Source of the DNA: a virus
Direction: 5' to 3' (one strand)
DNA: 31,195 nt
IMG/VR virus record: IMGVR_UViG_3300029728_000034
Shown: positions 1 to 29,305 of the stretch, piece by piece
Numbering within the stretch: the first letter of the stretch is position 1
Layout of the letters: the number at the start of each line of letters is the position of its first letter
The notes under the pieces: generated by a model
What the model was told of the DNA's origin: nothing
What the model saw: only the letters and a program-made list of their open reading frames with translations
Database searches by the model: none
Position numbers and translations under genes: made by a program

Positions 1-99
1 CAGGAGATATGATTTATGCTGGCAAGGCTTATAAATATCCTGAAACAGATAGAGTAGAGTTTTTATTAAATAATGTAGCTGAGAATTATCTATCTAATG
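1..99. repeat. Terminal direct repeat, copy 1 (identical to 31097..31195); circular-assembly overlap
   Basis: The 99 nt caggagatatgatttatgc...tatctaatg were read at both ends of the window and are identical. A single ORF runs through the junction in frame. Confidence 0.95.
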
Positions 100-916: not shown

Positions 917-3900
917 ATGAGAAAGAATATAAAACTATTTATTGCAAATAAAGAGGTTGACTGTAGTGAGGGAATTAGTCTTCCTATGACATATACTGTT
1001 GAGGATTTCCAAAACCCCACTATAGTCAAGAACTCGTTTAGTAAAACGATTTCTATACCTGGCACAAAGAATAATAATAAGATTTTTGGAGAGATTTATA
1101 AGTTAGATAGATTTCTCCATATAAAAGAAGGTAATTTCTCTGGAGTATATTTTGATCCTTCAAAACGAGTTGATTTTGGAATTTATAATAATGGCTATTT
1201 AGTTGAATCTGGATATATGCAATTAAATAGTATATCTATAAAACAAGCTATTATTACTTATAATATTACTTTATATGGAGGATTAGGAGATTTCTTTTAT
1301 GGTCTTAAATATAAAGAAGATGGTACTATTAGGACTCTTGCTGATTTACAATACTTTGTAACTGATGAAGATGGGAATACACTTCCTGCTGATACTGAAC
1401 TTAATTTTTATATTAACAAAGATTTTGTAAATACTTGTTTTGACTGAAGTAAAACGAATGAAGGAAGTCAAATATATGACTATTTAACATTCATTCCAGC
1501 ATATAATGGTTTATATGAAGATTTTGATAATGAAACTTGTTTAATAAATACTAATGAAAATAGTATATTTCCTACTAGTAAGACAGATTCAGGAGTTACA
1601 TATACACCTTATAATGGATATGGATTAGCTAAATTAAATAGAGCATATACAGAATGGGAGATGAGAGATCTTAGAAGTTATATGCAAAGGCCAGCTTTAA
1701 AATTGAGTAAGTTAATTGAAACTATCTGTAGAAAAGAGAATTCTGGATATGATGTAGTATTTGATCCTTCATTTTTTAATTGAAATAATCCGTATTGAAG
1801 TAAATCCTTTGTAGCTTTACCTTTATTATCTAATCTAGTAAGTGACGAAGAAGATGTAACAGAATCTGGCTTTTTAGTAGAAGATAGTAAATATAATTAT
1901 CAGGTAGGTATAAATAAAGGAGAATCTACATCAAGTCCTTTAAAATTATCCATTGCATCACCTGATATTGTTTACGATTCTGGAATAATTGATTTAAGTG
2001 AGGCTGGATTTAGAAAAAGCCTTTCTACAACTTTTTATTTTAAGTTAAAGTTTAATCGAACTGCAGGAAATGTTGGGGATAGATATTTTTTTGGATTTAG
2101 AAGGTATTTTAGCTCCTCTGCTCCTCCTTTTTATTCAGCATATAGAGGATACGCTGATGTTTGGCTAACAATTACTAATGAAGTAGATGATACTATTTAT
2201 ACTTCTGAAATACATAGATTTACAAATTCAGGAACCTACTCACATCCTATAGACAATGGGGTTAATCATTTTGGGTATTTTCAAAATAATGTATTTTATG
2301 ATACTTCTTCATTAACTAATGATTTTGTTATTAATATTACAAATTTTAAAATTCCAATTAATAAAATTAAAATTAAACTTAATGTTGTATGATCTACTGG
2401 AAATAGTGTTCGCCCTACTGGATTATTAAGTGAAGTAATAGAAAGAGGAGAGGATTACCAAGCTATTCCAAAAGGAGATCTTATAGTAGATCTTACTTCT
2501 CCCATTGAAATTACTACTTCTACAGAGGTACTTCAAAGTAATGCATTATTAACTAAAAAATTATTATTAAAAACAGAACAATCTCCTGCTGATTACTTAT
2601 TGAGTTATGCAAAACTATTTGGGTTATATTTTACAAAAGATATTGATAGTAAAACAATTAGAATATATACTAGAAATAATTTCTTTAAGAATATAATCTC
2701 TGATTGGAGTAAGAGAATAGATTATTCTAAAGATTTCAATGTAAATCCAATATTATTTGATAAGAAGTGATATAGAATGAGTTCTGAAGGTCCAGAAACT
2801 TATTTTTATAAAAAATACAATAAGGAATATTCTATATTATATGGTCAACAAAGATTAAATACTGGTTATAATTTTAATTCTGAAACAACTGAACTGTATA
2901 GTGATAATATATATGAAAATATAGTTTCTGCAAGATGGAGAAATAAATATTTTAGAAATTTTTACAATTCTTCTTCCCTTGTAGTTCCTGCATTTATGAA
3001 TGATAATATTACCTATACATTATTTAATAATAGCACTACTGAACTTAAGACTATAGATCAAGAGTTATACGGAGCTAATTTTATAGATCCCTCTAAAACC
3101 ACAGAATGATATAAAATCGCAGGTAATGATATATTTGCCAAAAATGTATTTTTCTCAATTGATGGTAATGAGGAATCTTTAGAGGATATCTCTCAATCCC
3201 TAGTATTCTTTAACGGTAATGTTCCTTTAACTGATGTAAAAGGAAATGAAGTAACATATTGAATTACAGATGATCTTACAGAAATGAACATATTAAATGA
3301 TCAGGAAATGTGTTATATATCTACTAAAAGTGAGAAAGATATTAGGGGGAATAAAATTGCTATAAAGAGAACTGTATTACCTCAATTTACAAGGTATACC
3401 GTTTCGTCCTCTAATGTTACTGCTTCTTGAGATTTTGGATTACCACAAGAGATTTATATTGATGATATAACTTATAATATCGGAAGTACTATTTATAGTA
3501 GATTCTGAAGTGAATTTTATAATGATCAATTTGATGTTAATACTAAAAAAGTTACCTGCTTTGTAAGATTGGGTGATTTAGATGTTAAGTATGATTTACT
3601 TAGACAGTTCTATTATTTTGAAGATTCTTACTGGATACTTAATAAGATTGATGCTTATGATATTAATTCAGATTCTACAGTTAGATGTGAATTTATTAAA
3701 GTTCAAGATATTAATAGTTATTTAGCTGGAATTCAAAATTTAGGTGAGTATATATCATTTGACGATTCAGATCCAGTTGTAGATTATAAAGCTGGGACTA
3801 AAAAGATTACAGTTACTTCTAATATTCCTTGAGAATTAGGATGATATAGTCCAAATGAAATTGTAAGCATTACACCTGAATCTGGGCAGCCTGGAGAAAC

Positions 3901-4276
3901 AGAATTGACAGTTACATATAATGAGAATACTACATATAATCAAAGGAGTTTCTATTTTAGTCTTTATAAACAAGGAAGTATAAATGGCCCTCAATGTATG
4001 TTTACTCAAACTCCAGACCCAAATAAAGCTATTCTTATTACAGGAAAGCTTCAAACTTCTACTGGAGGTATTCCTTCTGGCGTTAATCAGATTCTAACTG
4101 AAAATGATAATTTCTTAAATGTCACTTATATGAGAGATGATGGAAGTTATAGAATATATGCTCAAAATGGAGTTCAATTTTTATTTAGAGTATCTGACGG
4201 ACCAACAGGAACAGTTAAATATACAGAGAATTTAACACTAACAGAAGATACTGTTAAAAACGTAACTATAAACTAA
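917..4276 (+). CDS. Large tail-tip/baseplate (Tal-like) structural protein, 1119 aa, with a C-terminal BACON/Ig-like domain
   Basis: I translated the frame by hand from 917 to TAA 4274..4276. The only interruptions are 11 in-frame TGAs (1445, 1781, 1796, 2390, 2768, 3107, 3260, 3428, 3506, 3830, 3842). The C-terminus TSNIP-W-ELG-W-YSPNEIVSITPESGQPGETELTVTYNENTTYNQRSFYF fits the BACON pattern when TGA is Trp. Its position next to the tape-measure-like gene supports a tail role. Confidence 0.75.
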
Positions 4277-8033: not shown

Positions 8034-8933
8034 ATGGCAAATAGTCCTGTAATGACAACGCTTCCTGCTTATGTGGAGCAAAGACGTCTCCCTCTTATTA
8101 AGGAAGCGGTTTTAAAAGCTAAGAGTGCAAGTTTGTTTAATCTTCAGACAGATATTAAAACTGATGCTGCTCTTAACCTGTTATCTACCGATGTTCAGTT
8201 CGGTGATGGTCTTACTTGTGGTTGGGATGAGGCTGGAACTCAGACTCTTTCTCAGAGAATTCTTAAGACTGGTAATATTAAGATTAATATGGCATATTGC
8301 GATAAGGCTATGCTGAAATACTGGACTCAGTATGCAGTTAAGGTAGCCGCTGGTCAGAAGACTCTTCCTTTTGAAGAGGATTTCGTAAATGCTGTTGTAG
8401 AGAACGTAAAAGAGGCTATTGAGATAGCTATCTGGCAGGGTGATACGGCTTCAAAAACTAATAACTTGAAGTATTTTGATGGTCTGCTTAAGATTCTTGC
8501 TGCTGATGCTGTAGATGTAACAATTGCTGGAACATCTGCCTATACTGACATTATGGCAGTTTATAATGCAATTCCTGAGAAGGTTCTTGATGGTGCTTCT
8601 ATTCTTGTTGGTGCTGATATGTTCCGTAAGTTCGTAAATGAACTTGTTGAGAAGAACTATTTCCACTATAGCGGAGAGAGCCTTAATGGTGAGATTTATC
8701 TTCCTGGTTCACAGGTTAAGGTTATTGCTGTTAATGGTCTTAATGGAACTGATAAGATTGTTGCTGGTCAGTTAGACAAGAACTTCTTCTATGGTGTAGA
8801 TATGATGAATGATGAAGAGAAATTCGAATTGTGGTATTCACAGGATTTCCGCGAGTTCAGATTAGCTATTGAATTTAACGCTGGTGTACAAGTTGCTTTC
8901 CCTGACGAAGTAGTATTAGGTGCCAAGGCTTAA
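8034..8933 (+). CDS. Major capsid protein (HK97-fold class inferred)
   Basis: A 299-aa ORF following protease and scaffold. It has the best codon bias and the highest GC in the window. It is uninterrupted under either code (4 TGG, 0 TGA). Confidence 0.75.
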   Translation: MANSPVMTTLPAYVEQRRLPLIKEAVLKAKSASLFNLQTDIKTDAALNLLSTDVQFGDGLTCGWDEAGTQTLSQRILKTGNIKINMAYCDKAMLKYWTQYAVKVAAGQKTLPFEEDFVNAVVENVKEAIEIAIWQGDTASKTNNLKYFDGLLKILAADAVDVTIAGTSAYTDIMAVYNAIPEKVLDGASILVGADMFRKFVNELVEKNYFHYSGESLNGEIYLPGSQVKVIAVNGLNGTDKIVAGQLDKNFFYGVDMMNDEEKFELWYSQDFREFRLAIEFNAGVQVAFPDEVVLGAKA

Positions 8934-15955: not shown

Positions 15956-16005
15956 TGTCAGTTTTTATTTTTTCTTAGTACTTTGAGTGAGTAAAAAACT
16001 TGACA
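15956..16005 (+). promoter_or_regulatory. Conserved intergenic element, copy 2
   Basis: tgtcagtttttattttttcttagtactttgagtgagtaaaaaacttgaca. The core at 15988..16005 is identical to the other copies. It starts 5 nt after the upstream stop codon. Confidence 0.6.
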
Positions 16006-16031
16006 TTAAAGGAGGCTTAGGTCTCCTTTAA
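16006..16031 (+). terminator. Hairpin directly following element copy 2 (ttaaaggag / ctcctttaa, 8-nt loop)
   Basis: A 9-bp stem read directly, followed by ttatttta. It could be a terminator or a 5'-terminal stabilising hairpin. Confidence 0.45.
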
Positions 16032-17578: not shown

Positions 17579-18221
17579 TTATACAGTGTACTGCCATAAG
17601 AATATAGCTGATAATAAATTATATTTTGGAATAACATCACTTACTTTAAATAATAGATGGGGAACTAAAGGTCAAGGTTACAAGAATAATCTTTATTTTA
17701 GCAGAGCAATTAAAAAATATGGTTGAGATAATTTTGAGCATATTATAATTAGAGATAATCTTCCAGAAGCTTGTGCTAAGACTTTAGAAAAGATTCTGAT
17801 TTATAAGTATAATACTAGAAATCCAAAATATGGGTATAATTTAACTGATGGAGGAGACGGTACTTGTGGATATTCTTTTTCACAAGATTATAAAGATAGT
17901 CTTAGAATTATAAGATCAGGAGAAAATAACTCATTTTATGGTAAACAGCATTCAGATGAAAGCAAGCGTAAAATGAGGGAGGCAAGATTAGGCAAAACTC
18001 CTTGAAATAAAGGTATGAAACTCTCAGATAAAGAAAAACAACTAATTTCAGAACGTCAGTGCAAAAAAGTATATAAGTATGATTTAGATGGTAATTTTAT
18101 TTGTGAGTATAAATCAGCTAAGGAAGCTGGAGAGAAGAATAATGTAGATTCTTCTAGTATATCTAGATCTTGTAGAAAAAATAAACCCTGCAAAAATTAT
18201 AAATATTATTATGGAATATAG
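17568..18221 (+). CDS. GIY-YIG homing endonuclease 1 (with NUMOD3-like repeats and a C-terminal DNA-binding domain)
   Basis: MLNNYTVYCHKNIADNKLYFGIT (a GIY-YIG variant), then AIKKYG-W-DNFEH, NNSFYGKQHSDESKRKM and GKTP-W-NKG. TGAs are at 17724 and 18003. The ATG overlaps the portal 3' end. Stop is TAG. Confidence 0.8.
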
Positions 18222-19971: not shown

Positions 19972-20133
19972 ATGAAATATTGGATGAAATATTTAATAGC
20001 AATAGTAATTATAATCTTAGTATTTTTAATGGTAAAAGTAATTCCATTTTGGATTACATTAGTACTCATAGCACTTGGTGCAGGATGTCATTTATTTTAC
20101 CGTTATACTATGCTTAAAGATATTATTAAATAA
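19972..20133 (+). CDS. Holin candidate, 53 aa, two predicted TM helices
   Basis: MKYWMKYLIAIVIIILVFLMVKVIPFWITLVLIALGAGCHLFYRY... Its stop overlaps the endolysin ATG (taATGa). Confidence 0.45.
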   Translation: MKYWMKYLIAIVIIILVFLMVKVIPFWITLVLIALGAGCHLFYRYTMLKDIIK

Positions 20134-20585
20134 TGAAGTATTTTACTATTAGTGAATTAACAAGATCTGATACAGCTTCTATTAAGAAGATAGATAATAC
20201 TCCAAATAAAGAGATTACTGAACACCTTATAGAGTTAGTCGAGAAACTTTTAGACCCATTAAGAAGTGCTTGGGCAGAGTATTGTGATGACAATCAGCTT
20301 GGCAATGCAGGCATCAGGATTTCCTCTGGTTTTAGGAATAAGGAGCTTAATAAAGCAGTGGGAGGATCTTCAACTTCTGCTCATTTAACAGGGTATGCAG
20401 CAGATATATCTCCAATTAATGGTAATATGAAAGTATTCCAAAGTTGGATTGCTGAAGCTATTGAAGAATTTGATTTCGACCAGTTGATATATGAAAGGCC
20501 TAGGAATGGTATAGCTAGTTGAATACACTTGGGATTAAAGAATAAAGACGGGATGCAAAGACGACAGAAATTTACTATTATATAA
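20133..20585 (+). CDS. Endolysin, peptidase M15 (VanY / L-Ala-D-Glu peptidase-like), 150 aa
   Basis: It carries SSGFRNKELNKAVGGSSTSAHLTGYAADI (the H-x6-D zinc motif) and, downstream, W-IHLG. TGA 20520 is read as Trp. Stop is TAA 20583..20585. Confidence 0.75.
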
Positions 20586-21154
20586 TGTTTTACTATTGTT
20601 ATAAAATAATTTTAACTGCAGGTACATTAAGAGGCAAGTATTATATTGGGAAAAGGATTTATAGAGGTAAAGACATAAATAAAGATCCATATAAAGGATC
20701 AGGAAGGATTATTACTAATTATTACAAAAGATTCCCTAATGCATACCAAAAGATTATTTTGGCAACTTGCACTAATGCAGATGAATTATCTAAATTAGAA
20801 TACAAACTAATTGGAGATAAATGGGACACTGATCCTATGTGTTTAAATTTGAAACCTGGAGGAGAAGGAGGCAATTACGGAGTCAAATTTAATTCTGAAT
20901 GAAAGAAGAAACTGTCTAATTCTAATAAGGGAAAGAAACATAATTGCCCAGAATCTTGAAGAGTTAAAGTAGATGCTCATAACAAACAAAGATGTCGTAA
21001 AGTAGCTCAGTATGATTTAGATGGTAATTTTATTCAAGAGTATGAAAGTTGCACAGAAGCAGCCAAATCTGTAGGAACTGATAGAGGAGCTATTAGTAGA
21101 GTATGTGGTGGATTAGCAAATACAGCTAAAGGATTCAAGTGAAGATATGTTTAA
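20585..21154 (+). CDS. GIY-YIG homing endonuclease 2, 189 aa
   Basis: YCYKIIL...GKYYIGK at the N-terminus, a NUMOD3-like segment (KKLSNSNKGKKH), and the C-terminus VAQYDLDGNFIQEYESCTEAAKSVG...AKGFK-W-RYV. TGAs are at 20900, 20957 and 21140. Confidence 0.7.
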
Positions 21155-21192: not shown

Positions 21193-21333
21193 TTATTCCA
21201 TTATCTCAAATAATTTCTCATCTTTAGGTATTAAATCTCCTGTTTGTAAGTCTACTAAAAACTTACTATTTTCTGGTATTACATATACATAATACACTCC
21301 ATTTATACATACTTTATAGGTTTGGTATTTCAT
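21193..21333 (-). CDS. Hypothetical small protein, 46 aa
   Basis: MKYQTYKVCINGVYYVYVIPENSKFLVDLQTGDLIPKDEKLFEIME. It is tightly packed with its neighbours. Confidence 0.4.
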   Translation of the reverse strand: MKYQTYKVCINGVYYVYVIPENSKFLVDLQTGDLIPKDEKLFEIME

Positions 21334-21334
21334 A

Positions 21335-21475
21335 TTAATCAGTATATGTTGCATTAGTAATTTCTGGTTTTGGCATTTCTTCTACTTCTTCCCAAACTAA
21401 ACCTCTATTCTGGTTTTCTAGTTGAACTATTCTGTATTCTAGTTCTTCAAGCTTTTTAAATAAATGATCATCCAT
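21335..21475 (-). CDS. Hypothetical small coiled-coil protein, 46 aa
   Basis: MDDHLFKKLEELEYRIVQLENQNRGLVWEEVEEMPKPEITNATYTD. Confidence 0.4.
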   Translation of the reverse strand: MDDHLFKKLEELEYRIVQLENQNRGLVWEEVEEMPKPEITNATYTD

Positions 21476-21477
21476 AA

Positions 21478-21639
21478 TTAATCAAATTTAGAAATAAACA
21501 TATAATCTTTATTTTTTAATACTTTGTCTATAATATCACCAAATCTTTTAGTAGCCTCTTTACATTCGAGCATTCATTTATCCAATTCTTTAATATACTC
21601 TTCTGTTTGTTTAATTGTTTCTTTAATATCACTTTCCAT
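21478..21639 (-). CDS. Hypothetical small protein, 53 aa
   Basis: MESDIKETIKQTEEYIKELDK-W-MLECKEATKRFGDIIDKVLKNKDYMFISKFD, with one sense TGA (plus-strand 21574..21576). Confidence 0.4.
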
Positions 21640-21657
21640 ATCACAAATATAATATTT

Positions 21658-23379
21658 TTATTTATTAAATACAAATTTTTTATTAATAATTACATAACCT
21701 TCAGTTTGTTTACCATTTACTCTTTTCTGGCATTTTTTAACTTCATAATATTTATCAATTTCTGTTGCTTTTGGAGTAATAGTAATATCACTAATTTCAT
21801 AAGCTTCTTTAACAAACTTTTTAATATCAGCGTTAGAATACCACATTCCAAGAGTAATTGATTGATTTAACTTCTTAGCTGCTTTATTATCTGCACTTTT
21901 ATTTGATTTCTTTAATAGAGCATCTTTAATATCCGAAATGCAATATTTCAAGCTTGCCATCTTTTCGAATCCTAATTTACTAATAGCTTCTGGTAACCAA
22001 GGATATTTAATAATAGCATCATTTAAGAGTGGAGTATTCAGTTTAAATTTATTTTCCCATTCTGTTCTAACTTCTTTAATTAGTTCTTTAAATGGTTTAT
22101 TATCAGATTCAAAATCAATCTTAATAGAGTTGTCTTCACATTCTATTACTTTTTTAAATCCATTCTTTATATATTCTTTATTAAGATTCGTTCTAATAGA
22201 ATATAAACCTCTTGTCACTTTAAAGTTAAAAATATCTACCTTAGCCATATTTGGATCAAATGTAAATGTAAAATCATCATTTACTTGGATATAAGTATCA
22301 GATGTAAATTCTTTAAGTTTCTTTCTTGCAACTTCAGGCATTGCATTGTAAGCATCTACAGCAATCTTAGTTTCCTCAATATTCTGGATATTCTTCTTTT
22401 TAAAGTCTTCATAACTAATATCTGCATATCTTGTTGCTGAGTAAAGATGAGTTATCCAGTTTAAATATTTACTATTTCTAATTCTGCCAGCAATCTGTTG
22501 GATTGAAGTTGAGATGTCAAGAAGAGTTTGTGCTTTTTGAGCATCACTTACTACTACAATTCTTCCATTTTCATCATAAATATCAGAACCTTCAAATACT
22601 GTAGAAGTTAATAAATTTATTTTCTTAGGTTCATCTAATACTGTAGAATTATGAATTGATAATTTGGTTTTATTGTTTTTGGAATATATAACTCTGGTAT
22701 TCTCTTCTGTAAGTTTAGCTTTCTGAATAAGATTCTTTATAAAGTCTACAGAATTTACAAATATATAAACATTACCTTCGACTTGATTATTAAGAACAGC
22801 ATTAATTAATTTAATAGTTGAAGCTTCAACATTCTTACATTTAACGGCTTGTACCTTGGTTTCAATAACATCATCCCATTCTTGCTTTACTAATTCTAAA
22901 TCTTTTAATTCATCTAATACAAACTCTTCTTCAAGAGGAGTAGCAGTCATAAATGTAAAATCTTTAAATAATTCATAGTTCTCTAAAACAGGTTTAATAG
23001 CATCCTTTCTAAAGCTATACTGATTAAATAGTATATGATATTCATCTACTAATAAACTATATTCTTTAGTATTAACTGCAGAAATAACTTTTGGAAGTGA
23101 GTTATATGTAACAATAATTTTAGGACATTTAACACTCTCTACGTAATCTTTAATCTCTTTAATAGTAGCTCCAGCATAAACTCCAAATATCTTCTCAGTA
23201 CGTCTTTCATTTGGATATTGTTGAAGTTTATTTTCAACTAAGCTAGTAAATGGAACACAAATAACATAAGGCTTATTACATTCAATTGCCATTGAAGTTC
23301 CTCCACATCCAACTTTTCCTTTATCAAATAAACAGTTAGTTGGCAACTCATTAATCAAATTGTTTAAATATGTTTTCAT
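21658..23379 (-). CDS. Superfamily-2 (DEAD/DEAH-like) helicase, 573 aa; probable replication protein
   Basis: Motifs read in order: GKVGCGGTS (an atypical Walker A), LLVDEYH (DExH), MTATP, QQIAGRIRN (QxxGRxxR). It has 5 TGG codons and no TGA. Confidence 0.7.
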   Translation of the reverse strand: MKTYLNNLINELPTNCLFDKGKVGCGGTSMAIECNKPYVICVPFTSLVENKLQQYPNERRTEKIFGVYAGATIKEIKDYVESVKCPKIIVTYNSLPKVISAVNTKEYSLLVDEYHILFNQYSFRKDAIKPVLENYELFKDFTFMTATPLEEEFVLDELKDLELVKQEWDDVIETKVQAVKCKNVEASTIKLINAVLNNQVEGNVYIFVNSVDFIKNLIQKAKLTEENTRVIYSKNNKTKLSIHNSTVLDEPKKINLLTSTVFEGSDIYDENGRIVVVSDAQKAQTLLDISTSIQQIAGRIRNSKYLNWITHLYSATRYADISYEDFKKKNIQNIEETKIAVDAYNAMPEVARKKLKEFTSDTYIQVNDDFTFTFDPNMAKVDIFNFKVTRGLYSIRTNLNKEYIKNGFKKVIECEDNSIKIDFESDNKPFKELIKEVRTEWENKFKLNTPLLNDAIIKYPWLPEAISKLGFEKMASLKYCISDIKDALLKKSNKSADNKAAKKLNQSITLGMWYSNADIKKFVKEAYEISDITITPKATEIDKYYEVKKCQKRVNGKQTEGYVIINKKFVFNK

Positions 23380-23409: not shown

Positions 23410-23459
23410 TGTCAATATTTTTATTTTCTTACTACTAAATTTGAGTAAAAAACTTGACA
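23410..23459 (+). promoter_or_regulatory. Conserved intergenic element, copy 3 (plus orientation inside the minus-strand gene block)
   Basis: tgtcaatatttttattttcttactactaaatttgagtaaaaaacttgaca. The core at 23442..23459 is identical to the other copies. It contains TAAATTTG, a perfect TAnnTTTG box. Confidence 0.6.
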
Positions 23460-23475
23460 GTAAGATTCAAAAAGT

Positions 23476-23754: not shown

Positions 23755-24243
23755 TTAATAAATTTTTGGTCAAAATTCTAACTCACTAAAACTTAGTAGT
23801 TTATCTGATTCATATAAATCTAATGCTGATGGTTCCATATAGTAAATTTCAAAACATCTATCAAAAGAGCCTAAGTACTGTCTCTTTCCCTTAGATACAT
23901 TATATTTGTTTTCTAAAGTTTGAACTACTATATTTCCGCCTTTATTTTGATTATATCCATTATTTAGGGAATTATATTTAGATATATAATATATTTCAAG
24001 ATTATTTAACTTTACTATTAAATCTTCTAAATTATCATCTAATTCCTCTAATATTTCTCATTTAAACTTATCTATTCCGTATTTTCTAAAAGCGTTATAT
24101 AATGGATAATTATAAGCTTTATTACTTGGATCTGTACTTACAAACTTGTGTTTATTCCATCTTTTGTTAATATTAGTTCTAGTTTGACCAATATAACACT
24201 TATTATTTATTGTATTAGTTATTTTATAAATATACCCTTTCAT
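23755..24243 (-). CDS. GIY-YIG homing endonuclease 3, 162 aa
   Basis: MKGYIYKITNTINNKCYIGQT is a canonical GIY...YIG motif. I checked the reading codon by codon through TGA at 24058..24060 and 23770..23772 to TAA (plus-strand 23755..23757). Confidence 0.8.
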
Positions 24244-24263: not shown

Positions 24264-24295
24264 CAAATATATGAATAATTTTTTAATTATGCAAG
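24264..24295 (-). promoter_or_regulatory. Bacteroidota-type promoter (CTTG-N20-TATATTTG) for GIY-YIG 3
   Basis: The minus strand reads cTTGcataattaaaaaattattcaTATATTTGcaat, with 20 nt between the -7 box and the ATG. Confidence 0.45.
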
Positions 24296-24315: not shown

Positions 24316-24347
24316 TTTGGAAATATGAATTTTTTGTTGTATATTTG
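24316..24347 (+). promoter_or_regulatory. Bacteroidota-type promoter (TTTG-N20-TATATTTG) for the rightward early genes
   Basis: It matches the known Bacteroides primary-sigma consensus TTTG / TAnnTTTG exactly, with a 20-nt spacer, 46 nt upstream of ATG 24394. Confidence 0.6.
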
Positions 24348-24393: not shown

Positions 24394-24633
24394 ATGAAAA
24401 CTATATTTAAATATGCAATTATTGCAACGATTATTTTAATGGGAATAGCTGGTATTAGAGTATATAATGCTTATGGAGACTACCAAACTAAAACATTTGA
24501 GCTTAGATTAGAACAGGCAGAACTTCAGCATAAATTAGACTCTGTAATGTGGCATAATCCTGGAAGTTCAGAAGTATCTGAATTATATGAACAGTATTGT
24601 GATGTAACCTTAAAAATTCATAATGTAAGATAA
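24394..24633 (+). CDS. Small membrane protein, 79 aa
   Basis: It has an N-terminal TM helix (FKYAIIATIILMGIAGI) and is the first gene downstream of the rightward promoter. Confidence 0.55.
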   Translation: MKTIFKYAIIATIILMGIAGIRVYNAYGDYQTKTFELRLEQAELQHKLDSVMWHNPGSSEVSELYEQYCDVTLKIHNVR

Positions 24634-25070
24634 TGAAAACAGATATAAGAAGTTTAGTCTTTATAAAGAATCTATTTAAAGATAAATATAATATAGATAT
24701 AGAATGATGTAAAGACGATTATTCCAGGTATGATGGAACATTTAATTGGAATGGAATTGATTATATAATTGAAGTTAAAAGAAGAAGATTCAATTCTAAT
24801 AAATATCCAACCACTATTATTAATAGGGATAAATTTGATATGCTATCAAGAAATAATTCTATATTAGTAATAATATTTGATGATGGAGTATATATATTTA
24901 AAGATATAAAACAAGCCTTTATAAAGGATTCTATGAAATATGGTTGTTCTACAACAGATTTTGGAGGAACTTATGGCTATTCATTAAAAACAGAGTTGTC
25001 TTTAAAGAAAGCCATTAAGATAGATGTAAATACAGAATTTAGTAATTATATAGCAAATGATAGCCTATAA
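24633..25070 (+). CDS. Possible PD-(D/E)XK-fold nuclease, 145 aa
   Basis: ATG 24633 overlaps the upstream TAA. It has one sense TGA (24705). YDGTFNWNGIDYIIEVKRR fits the D...(D/E)xK pattern, but only weakly. Confidence 0.4.
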
Positions 25071-25551
25071 AAGAATACTTAATTTTGAAAACTACCAAAT
25101 TGGAACTGATGGCTCAATATGAAGTTTAAGAGCATCAGTTCCAAAGAGGTTAAAACCTCAAGTAAAAACTAATGGGTACTTTACAGTAACATTATATAAT
25201 AAAAATTTGAAAAAGAAGTGTTATATACATAGATTAGTAGCTGAAACTTTTATATCTAATCCGAATAACTATCCTTGTATAAATCATAAGGATGAAAATA
25301 AATCAAATAATAATGTAAGTAATTTAGAATGGTGTACTTATAATTATAATAATAATTATGGAACTCATAATCTGCGAGCTGGATATAGTCATAAGAAACC
25401 AATACTGCAATTACTAAATGGAATAGTTATTAAAAGATGGGATTCAGCAATAGATGCTGAGAGAGAACTAAATATACAATCTAGAAATATTGTAAAGGTT
25501 CTTAAAGGGCAGCGAAAAACAGCAGGAGGATATATGTGAACATATGAGTAA
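25057..25551 (+). CDS. HNH homing endonuclease (NUMOD4-like N-terminus, HNH core, C-terminal DNA-binding domain), 164 aa
   Basis: MIAYKRILNFENYQIGTDGSI-W-SL...NGYFTVTLYNK..KKCYIHRLVAETFISNPNNYPCINHKDENKSNNNVSNLEW...TAGGYM-W-TYE. TGAs are at 25120 and 25537. Confidence 0.85.
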
Positions 25552-25852
25552 TAACGAAATTGTAGAAAAGTACTATCCATTTATTATGGAACTTAAGCAA
25601 AAATTTGGTGCAGATGATGACTGTGTTCAAATGATTTTTGTAGAAATACTAGAGTATTCAAATCCAAAATTAAATCAGCTTGATAGCAAAAATGAATTGA
25701 AATTTTGGATTACAAGATTATTTAAGAATTATTGGTTTAGTAAAACAAGTAGATATTACTATACCTATAAGAAATATTATGAGATTGTTAAAGAACCACT
25801 TGAACAACAAAATGACGAATTGGAGGATTGATTAAATGAAACGGAAGATTAA
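25544..25852 (+). CDS. Sigma-70 family (ECF-like) region-2-only protein, 102 aa
   Basis: ADDDCVQMIFVEILEY...LKFWITRLFKNYWFSKTSR follows the ECF region-2 pattern (AeDlvQevF...WL.rIa.N...d..R). It has one TGA (25829) and stops at TAA 25850..25852. Confidence 0.5.
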
Positions 25853-26081
25853 TATTGACGATTTACTTACTGAGTATGAAATAGACTATAGTATGTTTAC
25901 AAATATGGATGATAGACTATTAAATATATATCCAAAATGACTTGAGCTTAATAAGGCAGATAAGACAGTAATCATATTATATGCTGAATATCACAGTTAT
26001 AGAGAAGTGGGAAGAATATTAGGAATTAGTCATACTACAATTCAAAGATTTATTAAACAAATAAGAGAGAGATTATGTTAG
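25836..26081 (+). CDS. Sigma-70 region-4-like HTH protein, 81 aa
   Basis: ADKTVIILYAEYHSYREVGRILGISHTTIQRFIKQIRERL matches the region-4 HTH pattern. It is a separate ORF in a different frame from the region-2 ORF, with a 17-nt overlap. It has one TGA (25938) and a TAG stop. Confidence 0.55.
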
Positions 26082-26404
26082 AATTATTTATAATAGCAGT
26101 AATAATAGTCTTTATAATTGATTTATCTGGGGCTTTGGATAGTTTTAAACATAGTATTTGAAAAAGACTATTTAAAGGTATGCCTTATAAAGAAGATTGA
26201 AGACTAAAACCTTTAGATTGCAGTTTATGTATGACTTGGTGAATTGGATTAATATATATTCTTATTACAAGTCAATTTTCAATTTTAATGGTTGGATATA
26301 TTGCACTATTAGCATTTATGACTCCAATTATTAAAGATATTATGATATTATTAAAAGATGCATCTACTAAGCTGATAGATGTTATATACAAACTTATTGA
26401 TTAA
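26075..26404 (+). CDS. Small integral membrane protein with a CxxC motif, 109 aa
   Basis: I translated it by hand. It has 3 sense TGAs, a PLDCSLCMTW-W motif and hydrophobic segments at both ends. Confidence 0.5.
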
Positions 26405-26829: not shown

Positions 26830-27190
26830 ATATCTTTATGCAGCAAGATTATTTAATAAAGGGTGGTCCAGAAATAAAGTAAGTGAGGAACTTCAAACTA
26901 AATATGGAGTTGGGCAAACTACTGCTGCTAAATATATTAGAGAAGCTTATAAGATTATTGCAGATAAAAACGATAATCTTATAAAGAATTTAAGACATAT
27001 ACAATTAACAAGATTGGAAACATTGTTGGATATTGCTATTAGTAAAAATGATGTAAGATCTGCTACTGAGGTTATTAAAACAATAAATTCTATGTTTGGA
27101 TTAAATCAACCAGAAATTCAAGTTAATATTCAAAATAATGAATGCCAATTTAAATTTGGAGACCCTATTATAAATGACAAGGATATATAA
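26738..27190 (+). CDS. terS: Terminase small subunit candidate, 150 aa
   Basis: It has a basic N-terminus (GRPKKEE), an HTH-like segment (WSRNKVSEELQTKYGVGQTTAAKYIREAY) and a helical C-terminus. It lies directly upstream of terL and overlaps it. Confidence 0.55.
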   Translation: MKVKNQELPKKIGRPKKEEVKEDQIDEQKTKYLYAARLFNKGWSRNKVSEELQTKYGVGQTTAAKYIREAYKIIADKNDNLIKNLRHIQLTRLETLLDIAISKNDVRSATEVIKTINSMFGLNQPEIQVNIQNNECQFKFGDPIINDKDI

Positions 27191-28421
27191 AGGATATAGG
27201 CCATTTATGTACCAATATAAGGTTCATATAGCTATGGCAGATGCTTATAGATCTGGAAGGATATTTACAATTAAAGCTAAACGACAAGTAGGTAAATCAT
27301 TCTTAGCTGAAAATGAATTATTACGATTTGCAATTAACTATCCAAAAACAGTCAATTGTATAGTAGAACCTACTCTTGGGCAATCAAGAAAAGTGTTTAA
27401 AGAAATAGTTAATGCTATAGCTGAAGCAGATATTCTTAAACGTAAGAATGAAACTTTGCTTGAATTAGAGTTTAATAATGGCAGTTCTATATTATTTAGA
27501 TCTGGAGAACAAATGGATTCGTTACGAGGATTCTCTGTAAGTGGATTACTTGTATTAGATGAGGCTGCTTACTTAAAAGATGAAGTATTTGAAATTATTA
27601 AACCTACTACTGATGTGTGGTCTGCTCCAATATTAATTATTAGTACTCCAAGGTTCCGAGAGGGTTTCTTTTATGACTGCTTTACTAAAGGGTTAGATCC
27701 GAAATATGACAAGTTCTATAAATCATTTGATTGAGCTTTAGAAGATACATCTATGCTTTTAGATAAAGAGAAGTTAGAGATGTATCGACTTACAACCTCA
27801 AAAAATAAATTTAGAACCGAATACTTAGGGGAATTTGCAGATGATGATGGATGTTTATTTAATAATATAGCTAATTGCATAATTGAGAAAAAACCAGATT
27901 ATCAGAGTCTTTATATAGGAATAGACTGGGCTACTGGGAGTGGTAAAGACTATACTTGTGTTACTGCTTTAAATGAATCTGGACAAATGGTCTTTATAAA
28001 GTATTTTAACGATAAAACTCCAACAGAGCAAGTTGATTTATTAACAAATATACTAACTGAGTATCAAGGATTTATAAAGATTGTGCAAGTTGAACAAAAC
28101 TCAATTGGTAGTGTCTTCTATGATATGTTAGTTCGGAAGAATCCGAAAATCAGGATTATACGATTCTTAACTACTAATAAGAGTAAGGCAGATATAGTTA
28201 ATAAGCTTCAAGCTGCTTTGGAGAATGAAAAGATAGGATTATTAAAAGATGATAAACTTTTAAATGAGTTAAGACTATATGAAGCTTCATATAATCCAAA
28301 AACTGGAAATGTTAGTTATAATGCTCCATCTGGATTTAATGATGATACAGTAATTTCATTAATGCTAGCCTATGACTCATTAAATACAAACAAAGGACAT
28401 TATAATATTAAAATTAAATAG
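27174..28421 (+). CDS. terL: Terminase large subunit, 415 aa
   Basis: Walker A is KAKRQVGKS and Walker B is GLLVLDEAAY. A C-terminal nuclease-like region includes GIDWATGSGKDYT and FNDDTVISL. The two ORF fragments are joined by TGA 27732. Confidence 0.85.
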
Positions 28422-29227: not shown

Positions 29228-29277
29228 TGTCAGTTTTTATTTATTTTAACTACTAAAAGTGAGTAAAAAACTTGACA
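29228..29277 (+). promoter_or_regulatory. Conserved intergenic element, copy 4
   Basis: tgtcagtttttatttattttaactactaaaagtgagtaaaaaacttgaca. The core at 29260..29277 is identical to the other copies. It starts 3 nt after TAA 29225. Confidence 0.6.
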
Positions 29278-29280
29278 CTT

Positions 29281-29305
29281 AAATAGGGAGTAAATCTCCC
29301 TATTT
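29281..29305 (+). terminator. Hairpin directly following element copy 4 (aaatagggag / ctccctattt, 5-nt loop)
   Basis: A 10-bp stem read directly, followed by gtgttt. Confidence 0.45.

What the first reader, a model, noticed from the sequence alone, without database searches (positions are those of the whole stretch)
24394..26404. No visible decoder for UGA, and early/regulatory genes are recoded too
Known recoded phages of standard-code hosts usually keep early genes free of the recoded stop and carry a suppressor tRNA and/or release-factor genes. Here the first genes downstream of the host-type promoters are already recoded. The putative nuclease has a TGA at codon 25, the HNH gene at codon 22, the sigma region-4 ORF at codon 35, and the membrane protein has three. 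GIY-YIG 3 on the other arm has two. The intergenic gaps are short, none longer than about 200 nt, and I saw no cloverleaf-capable GC-rich stems or T-loop-like GTTCRA sequences in them. No RF-like or aaRS-like ORF exists. So UGA must be readable at the moment of infection. Either the host natively reads UGA as Trp, or it provides a suppressor. That conflicts with the other host signals. TTTG-N20-TAnnTTTG promoters, absent Shine-Dalgarno sequences and BACON domains point to Bacteroidota, which use the standard code. The peptidoglycan-degrading M15 endolysin argues against wall-less code-4 Mollicutes.
Basis: inference. Interest (0 to 1): 0.7.

Follow-up and report, generated by a model that had tools for sequence, protein, structure and literature searches.

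The report
Gut phage reads UGA without own tRNA
This is a complete 31-kb gut phage genome that uses the stop codon TGA as tryptophan in half of its genes yet carries no tRNA, release factor or synthetase to do so; that situation is already documented for such phages, but nobody knows how the codon gets read.

Summary
The window is a complete phage genome (99-bp terminal repeat, 31,096 bp unique). TGA encodes Trp in 18 of 35 genes, including the flagged 24394-26404 region. No tRNA, RF or aaRS exists in it, in about 100 loci of its clade, or in a sister clade. The interpretation needs correcting in three ways. (1) Lack of a suppressor is usual for code-4 phages: 35% have one in Borges et al., 3 of 17 in Pfennig et al. 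(2) A TGA-free set does exist clade-wide: the first rightward gene, the SF2 helicase, most of the small leftward ORFs, the capsid, scaffold and holin-like genes. Two of the flagged "early" recoded genes are homing endonucleases, and one is absent from most relatives. (3) Recoding is partial: TGA is 42% of Trp codons, against 69-97% A-ending in comparable codon pairs. Host signals favour a standard-code Bacteroidota host: no Shine-Dalgarno sequences, TATATTTG -7 boxes, relatives integrated in Bacteroides, and co-assembly with a TGA-recoded crAss-like phage. The most likely mechanism is decoding supplied in trans by the host, probably tRNA-Trp(CCA) reading UGA with RF2 competition relieved. This is inferred, not shown. 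It is a new member of a known kind, and a small, clean test case for an open question.

The parts
1..99 (.). Direct terminal repeat, identical to 31097-31195. It marks a complete, circularly closed or DTR genome of 31,096 bp.
   Evidence: Exact 99-bp match of the two ends. The ORF starting at 29830 runs in frame through the end into 9-914, giving a 726-aa protein; the gene call in L001 agrees.
24316..24347 (+). Bacteroidota-type promoter match (TTTG-N20-TATATTTG), 47 nt upstream of ATG 24394. A mirror -7 box, TATATTTG, lies on the minus strand at 24264-24271, 21 nt before ATG 24243.
   Evidence: The count is no more than chance; the position and orientation are suggestive.
24394..24633 (+). 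First rightward gene: 79 aa with an N-terminal TM helix. TGA-free (1 TGG).
   Evidence: 0 TGA among 30 homologous Trp codons in relatives. No family hit.
24633..25070 (+). 145-aa ORF with a PD-(D/E)xK-like motif (D..IEVK); the nuclease assignment is unverified. In-frame TGA at codon 25 (24705-24707).
   Evidence: TGA conserved 31/31. No Pfam, PHROG, NCBIfam or PDB hit. A positional analogue ('YAVECKHRR') exists in the standard-code relative L190.
25057..25551 (+). HNH homing endonuclease (HNH_3 + NUMOD4 + I-HmuI NUMOD-like). TGA at codons 22 and 161.
   Evidence: TGA and TGG interchange at both codons in relatives.
25544..25852 (+). Region-2-like half of a split ECF-type sigma factor (102 aa). 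TGA at codon 96 (25829-25831).
   Evidence: NCBIfam TIGR02937, model positions 4-104, E 8e-4. Codon 96 is TGA in 22 and TGG in 8 relatives. Conserved in standard-code relatives.
25836..26081 (+). Region-4/HTH half of the split sigma factor (81 aa). TGA at codon 35 (25938-25940).
   Evidence: Pfam HTH_50 and Sigma70_r4_2. TIGR02937 positions 117-161. TGA in 33 and TGG in 4 relatives.
26075..26404 (+). Conserved small membrane protein (109 aa). TGA at codons 29, 42 and 56.
   Evidence: Standard-code relatives have W at positions 29 and 56. Homologs occur in Bacteroides prophages L006 and L007.
23755..24243 (-). GIY-YIG homing endonuclease ('GIY-YIG 3'), first gene of the leftward operon. TGA at codons 62 and 158. 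A mobile insertion.
   Evidence: Pfam GIY-YIG. Present in only 3-4 relatives and absent from the 80% relative L180.
21658..23379 (-). SF2 helicase (573 aa), probable replication/origin helicase. TGA-free with 5 TGG.
   Evidence: AlphaFold2 pLDDT 81. Foldseek matches SF2 helicases, including the HSV-1 origin-binding protein. 2 TGA among 100 Trp codons clade-wide. Homologs sit in elements integrated in Bacteroidota-type contigs.
21193..21639 (-). Three small leftward ORFs (53, 46 and 53 aa) downstream of the helicase, largely TGA-free. They are unknowns and the only unassigned early products.
   Evidence: By eye, similar small ORFs occur in the sister clade ('GLVWEE').
27174..28421 (+). Terminase large subunit. 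The in-frame TGA at codon 187 (27732-27734) bridges the ATPase and nuclease domains.
   Evidence: Pfam Terminase_6N + Terminase_6C. Homologs have W or F at this position. The identical 415-aa protein is in the database.
917..4276 (+). 1119-aa tail protein with 11 in-frame TGA and 5 TGG, and a C-terminal BACON-like segment. It sets the requirement for efficient decoding.
   Evidence: W is conserved in standard-code relatives at positions 618 and 864. Yield calculation. BACON_2 at 19.5 bits, sub-threshold.
8034..8933 (+). Major capsid protein gene, TGA-free (4 TGG). With the protease (6807-7400), scaffold-like gene (7407-8012) and the 174-aa gene (8974-9498) it forms a TGA-avoiding head block.
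   Evidence: Clade-wide TGA counts: capsid 0/151, scaffold 0/26, 174-aa gene 1/111. The control shows no general preference for G-ending codons.
19972..20585 (+). Lysis cassette: a holin-like 53-aa 2-TM ORF (19972-20133, TGA-free) and a Peptidase_M15_3 endolysin (20133-20585, 1 TGA). It implies a peptidoglycan-bearing host.

Best explanation
The window is the complete genome of a virulent-looking tailed phage. It has an HK97-type head module, a tape-measure protein and no integrase. It belongs to an abundant, uncultured human-gut clade that has partly reassigned TGA to tryptophan and encodes no decoder.

Shown:
- TGA means Trp.
- TGA is never used as a stop.
- There is no tRNA, RF or aaRS in the whole clade.
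- TGA is tolerated in low-copy and dispensable genes (fibres, tape measure, TerL, regulators, homing endonucleases).
- TGA is excluded from the most abundantly needed genes and from a small early set (capsid, scaffold, holin-like, SF2 helicase, first rightward gene).

Inferred:
- The host is a standard-code Bacteroidota bacterium.
- UGA is read in trans by the host's own tRNA-Trp(CCA) through C·A third-position pairing. Some bacteria, including a few Bacteroidales, carry a 4-bp-anticodon-stem form that reads UGA better.
- The 1119-aa tail protein has 11 TGAs, so per-codon efficiency must be about 0.8-0.9 or higher. RF2 competition must therefore be largely removed during infection, most plausibly by an unidentified phage early product. 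The phage itself never needs RF2, since all 35 genes stop at TAA or TAG.
- Slow near-cognate decoding would explain why highly expressed genes keep TGG, and would make TGA density a built-in attenuator or timer of gene expression.
For: TGA = Trp.

Complete genome without tRNA, RF or aaRS.

Clade-wide absence of tRNAs: about 100 loci, with at least 6 relatives' contigs fully covered. The sister clade's complete 28.7-kb genome also lacks tRNAs. Detection control, tRNA-Ser in L189.

Partial recoding: TGA 47 against TGG 66 (42%), while A-ending fractions are 0.69-0.97 in other NNR pairs; 18 of 35 genes are recoded. Native code-4 genomes use TGA for 80-90% of Trp codons (Pfennig et al.). Phages of native code-25 hosts have about 90% of genes recoded (Borges et al.).

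Gene-specific avoidance; it is not a general codon bias.

All stops are TAA or TAG. The closest standard-code relative has no TGA stop in its structural half (TAA 19, TAG 3) and one possible TGA stop in its early half.

Yield argument.

Host signals:
- SD cores in only 4 of 35 genes, against 43-50% in true Firmicutes prophages and 0-15% in Bacteroides prophages.
- TATATTTG boxes before both divergent operons.
- TerL relatives integrated in 189- and 587-kb Bacteroides contigs.
- Helicase homologs in Bacteroidota-type integrated elements, including a TAG-recoded prophage next to a standard-code flank.
- Co-assembly with a TGA-recoded crAss-like phage.
- M15 endolysin plus holin-like gene.

Literature:
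- Sup-TCA is rare in code-4 phages, while Sup-CTA is common in TAG phages. This asymmetry is expected if UGA, unlike UAG, can be read by a resident tRNA.
- 4-bp-stem tRNA-Trp(CCA) raises UGA read-through in E. coli and is the sole Trp decoder in code-4 Ca. Zinderia. 24 Bacteroidales genomes carry only this form and have fewer UGA stops.
Against: - No host genome, host tRNA-Trp sequence or RF2 antagonist has been identified. None of the early proteins resembles anything known to act on translation.
- The 4-bp-stem tRNA-Trp is rare in Bacteroidales (24 against 1,672 genomes), and its measured effect in E. coli was only about 2.5-fold, under overexpression.
- No +4 nucleotide context bias distinguishes TGA from TGG codons. 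Competition with RF2 might have produced such a bias.
- Core genes just behind the host-type promoter are recoded, so any phage-made switch would have to act very early or come from the leftward operon.
- Host assignment rests on indirect signals. MAG bin labels of the nearest TerL relatives are mixed (Bacteroidia and Clostridia).
Confidence: 0.4

Rival explanations
1. The host itself decodes UGA with a cognate tRNA. Either it is a so-far unrecognised walled, SD-less code-4 lineage without RF2, or it is a standard-code strain carrying a chromosomal or prophage-borne tRNA(UCA) suppressor. The phage has simply adapted to it.
For: - No decoder in more than 70 recoded genomes of two clades.
- TGA is never a stop.
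- Promoter-proximal core genes are recoded; in the sister clade even the first rightward gene is.
- New UGA->Trp lineages are still being found, such as Patescibacteriota JAKLIH01, and 0.3% of standard-code genomes carry suppressor tRNAs.
- A second, unrelated TGA-recoded phage (crAss-like) occurs in the same assembly. That is what a host-level property would produce.
Against: - TGA is only 42% of Trp codons, against 80-90% in native code-4 genomes, and only 51% of genes are recoded, against about 90% for phages of native code-25 hosts.
- TGA is strongly avoided clade-wide in the capsid, scaffold, holin-like and helicase genes, which would be pointless if UGA were an ordinary sense codon.
- Known UGA->Trp bacteria fall in four phyla, none of them Bacteroidota.
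- The endolysin and holin-like gene argue against Mollicutes.
- Recoded prophages of this gene pool sit in standard-code hosts (L183; Borges et al.).
Confidence: 0.25
2. Borrowed decoder. The small phage relies on a suppressor tRNA or other code-switch machinery supplied by another element in the same cell, for example the co-occurring large TGA-recoded crAss-like phage. It would be a translational dependant of a helper.
For: - A 148.6-kb contig joins about 117 kb of a TGA-recoded crAss-like phage to a complete copy of a small-phage relative, in frame, at a conserved fibre motif.
- Some opal-recoded Zeta crAss-like phages carry Sup-TCA.
- Fibre shafts are homologous (36% aa), which is compatible with a shared host.
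Against: - The two pure phages share no k-mer longer than 21 nt, so the join may be an assembly artefact.
- About 30 kb of the large phage scanned contains no tRNA, and 4 of 6 opal-recoded Zeta genomes lack Sup-TCA themselves.
- The small phage has complete replication, packaging, head, tail and lysis modules and is very abundant as stand-alone 29-33-kb contigs. An obligate need for co-infection in every cycle is costly.
Confidence: 0.08
3. The phage does encode a decoder, but it is a non-canonical RNA (split, permuted, intron-containing or highly divergent tRNA, or another adaptor) that ARAGORN and the Rfam tRNA model miss.
For: - Borges et al. and Pfennig et al. both raise this possibility.
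- The genome has a conserved four-copy intergenic hairpin element, with strong fold z-scores for two copies.
- A sister-clade genome has an ORF-less ~350-nt insert behind a duplicated early promoter, with no Rfam match.
Against: - Only about 1.2 kb of the genome is non-coding, in pieces of 265 nt or less.
- The hairpin elements are AU-rich stem-loops followed by terminator-like hairpins, with no cloverleaf, no UCA loop and no acceptor-like end.
- Relaxed ARAGORN gives only candidates inside ORFs, none with a UCA anticodon. Rfam at E<=10 gives nothing tRNA-like.
- The ~350-nt insert is absent from the window's clade.
Confidence: 0.1
4. Artefact: the in-frame TGAs are genuine stops (pseudogenes, a defective genome) or sequencing errors, and nothing needs decoding.
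For: None beyond the formal possibility. One TGA (sigma-r2 ORF, codon 96) lies 6 codons before the TAA and could function as a stop without harm.
Against: - The same TGA positions are conserved in dozens of independently assembled genomes and alternate only with TGG.
- They align with W in standard-code homologs.
- Reading frames stay conserved on both sides of each TGA.
- Coverage gain is specific to TGA.
Confidence: 0.01

Closest known systems
Small stop-codon-recoded gut phages of Borges et al. (Garnet/Amethyst ~34 kb, Topaz ~22 kb), and code-4 phages in general
   Same: - Gut origin, about 30 kb, low GC.
- Recoded stop in structural and lysis genes.
- Probable standard-code Bacteroidota host.
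- TGA stops vacated in standard-code relatives before recoding.
- No detectable suppressor tRNA, as in 65% of code-4 genomes.
- The helicase gene is shared with a TAG-recoded, Garnet-like prophage in a Bacteroidota-type contig.
   Different: - No integrase, whereas Garnet and Topaz are temperate.
- TGA rather than TAG.
- The recoded codon is excluded from the capsid, scaffold and holin-like genes rather than enriched in structural and lysis genes.
- Promoter-proximal regulatory genes are recoded.
- Membership of a named clade could not be tested, because no reference sequences were at hand.
TGA-recoded Jade/Agate and opal-recoded Zeta crAss-like phages with self-encoded switch machinery
   Same: [quoted passage not shown] A crAss-like TGA-recoded phage co-occurs with this one.
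   Different: Those phages have 100-200-kb genomes with many tRNAs and, in some, Sup-TCA, RF1 and TrpRS in a standard-code 'switch operon'. This genome has 31 kb, 35 main gene calls plus a few small ORFs, and none of these components.
[quoted passage not shown] Zinderia; Fakih et al. 2026)
   Same: UGA is read as Trp with no UCA tRNA. This fits the specificity for Trp and the absence of a phage tRNA.
   Different: Those are cellular genomes in which the release factor is lost or weakened. Here the reading would have to occur in a host that still uses UGA stops, and nothing about the host tRNA is known. This is a resemblance in how it may work, not a tested membership.
Phages of native code-4 or code-25 hosts (Mycoplasma/Spiroplasma phages; code-25 phages of Absconditabacteria)
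   Same: No need for a phage-encoded decoder. Recoded codons occur throughout, including early genes.
   Different: - TGA = Trp, not Gly.
- TGA under-used (42%), and only 51% of genes recoded.
- Peptidoglycan-directed lysis cassette.
- SD-less, Bacteroidota-type expression signals.
Programmed leaky UGA read-through (e.g. the Qbeta A1 protein)
   Same: Host tRNA-Trp reads UGA, with no phage tRNA (my own knowledge of the Qbeta system).
   Different: Leaky read-through works at a few percent on a single codon to make a minor extended product. Here up to 11 TGAs lie inside one essential ORF, which needs near-complete decoding.

Membership tests
TGA->Trp (code 4) recoded phage | Coding density and ORF length are restored when TGA, and only TGA, is read as sense. 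| tested here: met
   Coverage 62% -> 87% for TGA and 63% for TAG. The same holds in all relatives with at least 72% capsid identity.
TGA->Trp (code 4) recoded phage | In-frame TGA aligns with Trp in homologs that use the standard code. | tested here: met
   W 82, F 49, Y 23, G 4 over 33 sites and 72 standard-code loci. TGA<->TGG interchange in relatives.
TGA->Trp (code 4) recoded phage | TGA is not used as a terminator. | tested here: met
   35 genes: TAA 31, TAG 4. By construction no code-4 ORF ends in TGA, but homolog lengths agree: TerL is 415 aa and L001 gene lengths match.
Code 25 (TGA->Gly) phage of Absconditabacteria/Gracilibacteria | In-frame TGA aligns with Gly. | tested here: not met
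   G at only 4 of about 280 aligned cells.
Recoded phage with self-encoded code-switch machinery | Suppressor tRNA with an anticodon matching the recoded stop (UCA). | tested here: not met
   for the complete genome. for the clade and sister clade.
Recoded phage with self-encoded code-switch machinery | Release factor (RF1 for TGA recoding) and/or a cognate aaRS (TrpRS). | tested here: not met
   No such family in Pfam, NCBIfam or PHROGs scans of the ORFs.
Two-phase 'early standard code, late alternative code' architecture (Ivanova/Yutin/Borges model) | Early and replication genes are free of the recoded stop. | tested here: inconclusive
   Met for the SF2 helicase (2/100), most small leftward ORFs and the first rightward gene (0/30), and for the sister clade's leftward operon. 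Not met for the nuclease-like, sigma and membrane genes directly downstream of the same host-type promoter. Expression timing is unknown.
Two-phase 'early standard code, late alternative code' architecture (Ivanova/Yutin/Borges model) | Structural and lysis genes preferentially use the recoded stop. | tested here: not met
   Capsid 0/151, scaffold 0/26, 174-aa head/tail gene 1/111, holin-like 0/54, portal 10%. Tail, fibre and tape-measure genes are at 30-92%.
Phage of a native code-4 host (Mollicutes type) | TGA is the dominant Trp codon (80-90% in native code-4 genomes) and nearly all genes are recoded. | tested here: not met
   42% of Trp codons and 51% of genes. Reference values.
Phage of a native code-4 host (Mollicutes type) | No need for peptidoglycan lysis functions (wall-less host). 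| tested here: not met
   Peptidase_M15_3 endolysin preceded by a 2-TM holin-like ORF.
Bacteroidota-infecting phage | Translation starts without Shine-Dalgarno sequences. | tested here: met
   4 of 35 genes have an SD core of 4 nt or more. The same crude measure gives 43-50% in Firmicutes prophages and 0-15% in Bacteroides prophages and all close relatives. Not exclusive to Bacteroidota.
Bacteroidota-infecting phage | Promoters of the -33 TTTG / -7 TAnnTTTG type. | tested here: inconclusive
   2 full matches against 2.15 expected. However, TATATTTG lies in the correct orientation before both divergent operons and before the small ORF at 21639. The same promoter, duplicated, is present in the sister clade.
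Bacteroidota-infecting phage | BACON domains in virion proteins. | tested here: inconclusive
   BACON_2 at 19.5 bits and BACON at 17 bits, against cutoffs of 25. They are the top hits only when the segments are scanned alone, and none appears at E<=0.01 on the whole proteins.
Bacteroidota-infecting phage | Relatives integrated in, or linked to, Bacteroidota genomes. | tested here: met
   TerL relatives (39%) inside 189- and 587-kb Bacteroides contigs. Helicase homologs (44-47%) in elements with Arm-DNA-bind_5 integrases and BACON-bearing flanks. These are distant relatives, so support is moderate.
Garnet/Amethyst/Topaz clades (Borges et al.) | Terminase phylogeny placing the genome inside the named clade. 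| not testable with these tools
   No reference sequences for these clades were available. Only indirect links exist: size, host phylum, and a helicase shared with a TAG-recoded prophage.

The most novel reading that the evidence does not exclude
A tRNA-free, protein-only switch of the genetic code. An early product of this 31-kb phage (one of the TGA-free small ORFs or the 79-aa membrane protein) neutralises host RF2. Resident tRNA-Trp(CCA) then reads UGA, host genes ending in UGA are mistranslated, and the number of TGAs in each phage gene sets how much and how late it is made. That would explain why the capsid, scaffold, holin-like and helicase genes keep TGG, and why the split sigma factor and tail genes carry TGA.
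Probability: 0.25. Interest if true: 0.85.

Novelty: new member of a known kind. Interest (0 to 1): 0.5.

Why it matters
[quoted passage not shown] The literature falls back on undetected tRNAs or incomplete genomes. This clade removes both excuses. The genomes are complete, tiny (35 main gene calls plus a few small ORFs, about 1.2 kb non-coding), abundant, and uniformly free of tRNAs across two sister clades, so the decoder must be cellular or unconventional.

The gene-by-gene pattern constrains the mechanism. TGA is excluded from the most expressed genes and from a small early set, while one essential gene carries up to 11 TGAs. Decoding must therefore be efficient but costly.

If a host can be cultured (Bacteroidales are tractable), the system offers a direct test of two ideas: whether RF2 antagonism plus near-cognate tRNA-Trp suffices to change a cell's code, and whether a recoded stop acts as an expression timer. 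There is also a practical point: such genomes are mis-annotated and under-detected when code 11 is assumed.

Tried and rejected
- **Relaxed tRNA searches.** ARAGORN at ps80, and in mitochondrial and intron modes, gave only low-scoring candidates inside ORFs, none with UCA. Rfam at E<=10 gave only chance snoRNA/miRNA-type hits.
- **Host from the 148.6-kb contig.** I hoped for a prophage junction. It is instead a join of a crAss-like TGA-recoded phage with the small phage at a short fibre motif, with no host DNA.
- **Sup-TCA in the large phage.** No tRNA in about 30 kb scanned.
- **Cultured relatives.** The capsid gave no hit, and TerL reached only about 29% identity to Halorubrum and Thermus phages.
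- **+4 nucleotide context of TGA versus TGG.** No difference.
- **Nuclease-like gene as a recoding-specific candidate.** BLAST found it only in recoded clades, but a positional analogue with the same motif exists in the closest standard-code relative. Rejected.
- **Frameshift fusion of the two sigma halves.** Excluded, because the second ORF's frame has a TAA immediately before its ATG (sequence).
- **Four-copy hairpin element as a decoder.** Rejected on structure.
- **Single-sequence AlphaFold of the helicase.** Unusable at pLDDT 36; repeated with an alignment.
- **MAG bin labels.** Acutalibacteraceae, Clostridia and Bacillales labels for close TerL relatives were not trusted. Those contigs are phage-sized and SD-less, unlike genuine Firmicutes prophages.

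Full report
**What the window is.** The 31,195-base window ends in an exact 99-bp direct repeat of its start, so it is a complete phage genome of 31,096 bp. GC is about 29%. Read with TGA as sense it holds 35 main gene calls plus a few small ORFs.
- One long rightward series starts at 24394 and wraps through the terminal repeat to 21154. In order it holds small early/regulatory genes, terS and TerL, tail genes, tape measure, head protease, scaffold and capsid, fibres, portal, head-completion genes, and a holin-like gene plus an M15 endolysin.
- A short leftward operon runs from 24243 down to 21193. It holds a GIY-YIG endonuclease, a 51-aa ORF, a 573-aa protein and three small ORFs.
- The 573-aa protein has no sequence-level family. 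An AlphaFold2 model built on 54 homologs (pLDDT 81) matches SF2 helicases, including the herpesvirus origin-binding helicase, so it is probably the replication helicase.
- There is no integrase.

**Checking the observation.** The recoding is real and specific.
- ORFs of 100 aa or more cover 62% of the genome under code 11, 87% with TGA as sense and 63% with TAG as sense.
- TerL is split into its ATPase and nuclease halves unless TGA-187 is read through. An identical 415-aa TerL and hundreds of homologs exist.
- A Codetta-style tally against 72 standard-code relatives puts W (82), F (49) and Y (23) opposite the TGA codons, and G only 4 times. The meaning is therefore Trp, not the Gly of code 25.
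- Across dozens of independently assembled relatives, the same codons alternate between TGA and TGG and almost nothing else.

No decoder is encoded.
- ARAGORN finds nothing at default, 95% or circular settings. At very relaxed settings it finds only low-scoring candidates inside ORFs, none with a UCA anticodon.
- The Rfam tRNA and tmRNA models find nothing at E<=10.
- No RF or aaRS family appears in the Pfam, NCBIfam or PHROGs scans.
- The methods do detect tRNAs in this phage group when present. One sister-clade variant has a 51.5-bit tRNA-Ser(GCU) right behind its early promoter.

- One non-coding gap is 265 nt. Two apparent gaps of 376 and 504 nt are filled by small minus-strand ORFs.
- GC-rich hairpins do exist, but they are terminator-like.

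**The clade.**
- TerL has 905 database relatives.
- All relatives with at least 80% TerL identity or at least 72% capsid identity have about 28-32% GC and are TGA-recoded. They lack tRNAs in about 100 loci anchored on TerL, capsid or portal, and at least six contigs of 26-34 kb are fully covered.
- A sister clade (TerL 56%, 28.7 kb) is likewise recoded and has no tRNA.
- Relatives at about 50% TerL identity use the standard code. So does a syntenic, equally AT-rich relative with 66% capsid identity.
- That closest standard-code relative has no TGA stop in its structural half (TAA 19, TAG 3) and one possible TGA stop in its early half. TGA had therefore largely been vacated before it reappeared as Trp, as Borges et al. 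describe.
- No cultured phage is close.

**How complete is the recoding?**
- Only 18 of 35 genes contain TGA. TGA supplies 47 of 113 Trp codons (42%), although A-ending codons make up 69-97% of comparable NNR pairs.
- Native code-4 genomes use TGA for 80-90% of Trp codons. Phages of native code-25 hosts have about 90% of genes recoded.

The distribution among genes is strongly non-random across the clade (fraction of homologous Trp codons that are TGA):

| TGA-avoiding genes | TGA / Trp codons | TGA-using genes | TGA share |
|---|---|---|---|
| Capsid | 0/151 | Three homing endonucleases | 78-80% |
| Scaffold | 0/26 | One fibre (LRR 3) | 92% |
| 174-aa gene | 1/111 | Sigma region-4 half | 89% |
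| Holin-like | 0/54 | Membrane protein | 73% |
| SF2 helicase | 2/100 | Tape measure | 65% |
| First rightward gene | 0/30 | Nuclease-like gene | 52% |
| Portal | 10% | 1119-aa tail protein | 50% |
| | | TerL | 45% |

- This is not a general preference for G-ending codons. The TGA-poor set has an NNA fraction of 0.70 against 0.79 in the rest, while its TGA fraction is 0.04 against 0.56 (the sets were defined post hoc).
- The sister clade shows the same split: leftward operon TGA-free, rightward genes heavily recoded.
- The 1119-aa tail gene has 11 TGAs. A per-codon efficiency of 3% would yield about 1e-17 of full-length product, and even 50% yields 5e-4. Decoding must therefore be near-complete, about 0.8-0.9 or higher.
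- Together these facts indicate that UGA is read efficiently but at a cost, and perhaps not from the first minute.

**The flagged region itself.**
- A promoter matching the Bacteroidota consensus (TTTG-N20-TATATTTG) lies 47 nt before ATG 24394. A mirror TATATTTG lies 21 nt before the leftward ATG at 24243. The sister clade has the same promoter, duplicated.
- No + strand terminator lies between 24394 and 29082, so the genes are probably co-transcribed.
- The first gene (79 aa, membrane-anchored) is TGA-free.
- The nuclease-like ORF has a D..E-x-K motif, but no database support for the nuclease call. Its TGA at codon 25 is invariant (31/31).
- The HNH gene is a homing endonuclease.
- The next two ORFs are the region-2 and region-4 halves of an ECF-type sigma factor, encoded separately. 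TIGR02937 matches positions 4-104 in one and 117-161 in the other. A TAA lies just before the second ATG, which excludes a frameshift fusion.
- These two ORFs, the membrane protein and the following 111-aa gene are conserved next to terS/TerL in standard-code relatives and in integrated Bacteroides prophages. They are therefore core genes whose TGAs must be decoded.
- On the other arm, GIY-YIG 3 is present in only 3-4 relatives and absent from an 80% relative, so its TGAs say nothing about early expression.
It is not right for the leftward operon or the very first rightward gene.

**Host.**
- Shine-Dalgarno cores occur before only 4 of 35 genes. The same crude measure gives 43-50% in prophages of cultured Firmicutes and 0-15% in Bacteroides prophages. 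All closer TerL relatives also score 0-15%, including phage-sized contigs binned as Clostridia.
- TerL relatives at 39% identity are integrated in 189-kb and 587-kb Bacteroides contigs, and the nearest MAG-binned relatives are mostly Bacteroidia.
- Homologs of the helicase (44-47%) sit in integrated elements with Bacteroidota-type integrases and BACON-bearing flanks. One is a TAG-recoded prophage beside a standard-code host flank.
- BACON domains in the tail proteins are only sub-threshold.
- The lysis cassette implies peptidoglycan.
- Known UGA->Trp bacteria belong to four phyla, none of them Bacteroidota.
- GenBank relatives of associated sequences come from human faeces.
- I put a standard-code Bacteroidota host at roughly 0.65-0.7.

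**An unexpected neighbour.**
- A 148.6-kb IMG/VR contig that seemed to hold an 80% relative as a prophage turned out to be something else. About 117 kb of it is a large phage, joined in frame to a full small-phage genome at a conserved fibre motif (…SLDSLG|IQPAGNY…).
- The large phage occurs in at least 13 contigs of 85-168 kb and is itself strongly TGA-recoded (code-4 coverage 0.93-0.98 against 0.45-0.56).
- Its TerL is crAss-like, and every labelled host among its matches is a Bacteroidota.
- The two pure phages share no k-mer longer than 21 nt. The join therefore proves only co-assembly and homologous fibre architecture.
- About 30 kb of the large phage contains no tRNA.
- Published Zeta crAss-like genomes (155-183 kb, mostly Bacteroidales hosts) include six opal-recoded members. 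Only two have a Sup-TCA, although the others carry 18-25 tRNAs.

**What is already known.**
- Borges et al. found TGA suppressors in only 35% of code-4 phage genomes. They suggested divergent tRNAs or phage modification of host tRNAs and machinery.
- Pfennig et al. found Sup-TCA in 3 of 17 complete code-11/4 genomes, against Sup-CTA in 225 of 303 TAG-recoded genomes. They suggested host suppressors, non-canonical tRNAs or incompleteness.
- 'No visible decoder' is therefore the usual state for TGA->Trp phages. The asymmetry with TAG is itself a clue: UGA, unlike UAG, has a resident near-cognate reader.
- Fakih et al. [quoted passage not shown] It is the only Trp decoder in code-4 Ca. Zinderia and occurs as the sole form in 6.5% of standard-code bacteria. 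That group includes 24 Bacteroidales genomes with reduced UGA-stop usage.

**Most likely mechanism** (inferred; overall confidence about 0.4).
- Decoding is supplied by the cell: host tRNA-Trp(CCA) reads UGA.
- Because up to 11 TGAs must be passed in one protein, RF2 must be largely out of the competition.
- The phage never needs RF2, since all its stops are TAA or TAG. An early anti-RF2 function is therefore plausible. The only unassigned TGA-free early products are the 79-aa protein and the small leftward ORFs.
- Slow near-cognate decoding would explain why the capsid, scaffold, holin-like and helicase genes keep TGG. It would also turn TGA density into an attenuator or timer, including for the phage's own sigma factor.
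- Weak points: no host, no candidate factor with any recognisable fold or family, rarity of the 4-bp tRNA form in Bacteroidales, and no +4 context signal.

**Rivals.**
- A host with a cognate tRNA(UCA) or a native code-4 host: 0.25. It is disfavoured by the partial, gene-selective use of TGA.
- An undetected non-canonical phage RNA: 0.10. Little non-coding space is left, and the four-copy hairpin element is not tRNA-like.
- A decoder borrowed from a co-infecting recoded phage: 0.08.
- Artefact: about 0.01, refuted.

**Verdict.**
Decoding must come in trans, and the host is probably a standard-code Bacteroidota. But it overstates the contrast with known recoded phages and overlooks the TGA-free gene set.
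- This is a new member of a known kind. Its value is as an unusually small, complete and abundant test case for an acknowledged open question.

Noticed in passing
window 6687-6727, 15956-16015, 23410-23469, 29228-29287 (all + strand): A four-copy intergenic element, TGTCA(G/A)TTTTT…GAGTAAAAAACTTGACA, forms a long AU-rich hairpin. Each copy is followed within 1-20 nt by a GC-rich, terminator-like hairpin. The copies sit at module boundaries: tape measure|head, fibres|portal, helicase start, and 219-aa gene|tail. RNA fold z-scores are -4.2 and -4.9 for two copies. The element is conserved in an 80% relative. It is possibly a phage-specific promoter/operator, perhaps a target of the phage's own split sigma factor, or an antitermination or processing signal. 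It is not tRNA-like.
   Followed up: partly
window 25544-25852 and 25836-26081: An ECF-type sigma factor is encoded as two separate overlapping ORFs: a region-2 half of 102 aa and a region-4 half of 81 aa. A TAA lies directly before the second ATG, and one of the genome's very few GGAGG motifs lies 9 nt upstream of it. The pair is conserved in standard-code relatives too.
   Followed up: partly
L192/L180/L205 (IMGVR_UViG_3300045988_175865, 148.6 kb); L191-L218: This contig is a join of about 117 kb of a TGA-recoded crAss-like phage with a complete small-phage genome. The large phage family is seen in at least 13 contigs of 85-168 kb with 32-34% GC. The join is in frame within fibre genes at a short conserved motif. 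It could be a chimeric assembly or a real fibre-module recombination; this was not resolved. No tRNA was found in about 30 kb of the large phage.
   Followed up: partly
L187 5516-5875 (sister-clade genome, ENA ERZ28654171 scaffold_825): An ORF-less insert of about 350 nt, with higher GC (40-50% against 28%), lies behind a duplicated copy of the early Bacteroidota-type promoter. It has no Rfam match and a fold z-score of -2.3. It sits where the variant L189 carries a tRNA-Ser(GCU). It may be a novel ncRNA gene, and it is absent from the window's clade.
   Followed up: partly
L014 and L015 (MAG contigs labelled Bacillales and Ca. Scybalousia); L183 (ENA ERZ28598220 scaffold_71): The same TerL superfamily and the same helicase family also occur in TAG-recoded elements. 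L014 and L015 have code-15 coverage of 0.87 and 0.94 against 0.42 and 0.62 for code 11. L183 is a TAG-recoded prophage (0.89 against 0.48) integrated next to tRNA-Thr and a standard-code host flank of 39% GC. Its helicase and integrase are intact under the standard code.
   Followed up: partly
window 17559-18221, 20585-21154, 23755-24243(-), 25057-25551: A 31-kb genome carries four homing endonuclease genes (three GIY-YIG and one HNH), and all are TGA-rich (46-80% of Trp codons clade-wide). GIY-YIG 3 is present in only a few relatives, so these genes are actively mobile within the clade.
   Followed up: partly
window 9590-10543, 12963-14102, 14980-15951: Three paralogous BspA-type LRR fibre proteins share a C-terminal '…KNW(I/S/T)…' motif in which the Trp is TGG in one copy and TGA in the other two. 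This is an internal demonstration that TGA = Trp. Each is followed by a small 73-78-aa ORF, possibly a chaperone or assembly factor.
   Followed up: no
L190 4100-4912 (closest standard-code relative, IMGVR_UViG_3300029905_000019): The only TGA-terminated ORF in this relative (191 aa) is followed in the same frame, after one codon, by a 77-aa hydrophobic ORF. It could be a genuine TGA stop or the first in-frame TGA of an incipient recoding.
   Followed up: no
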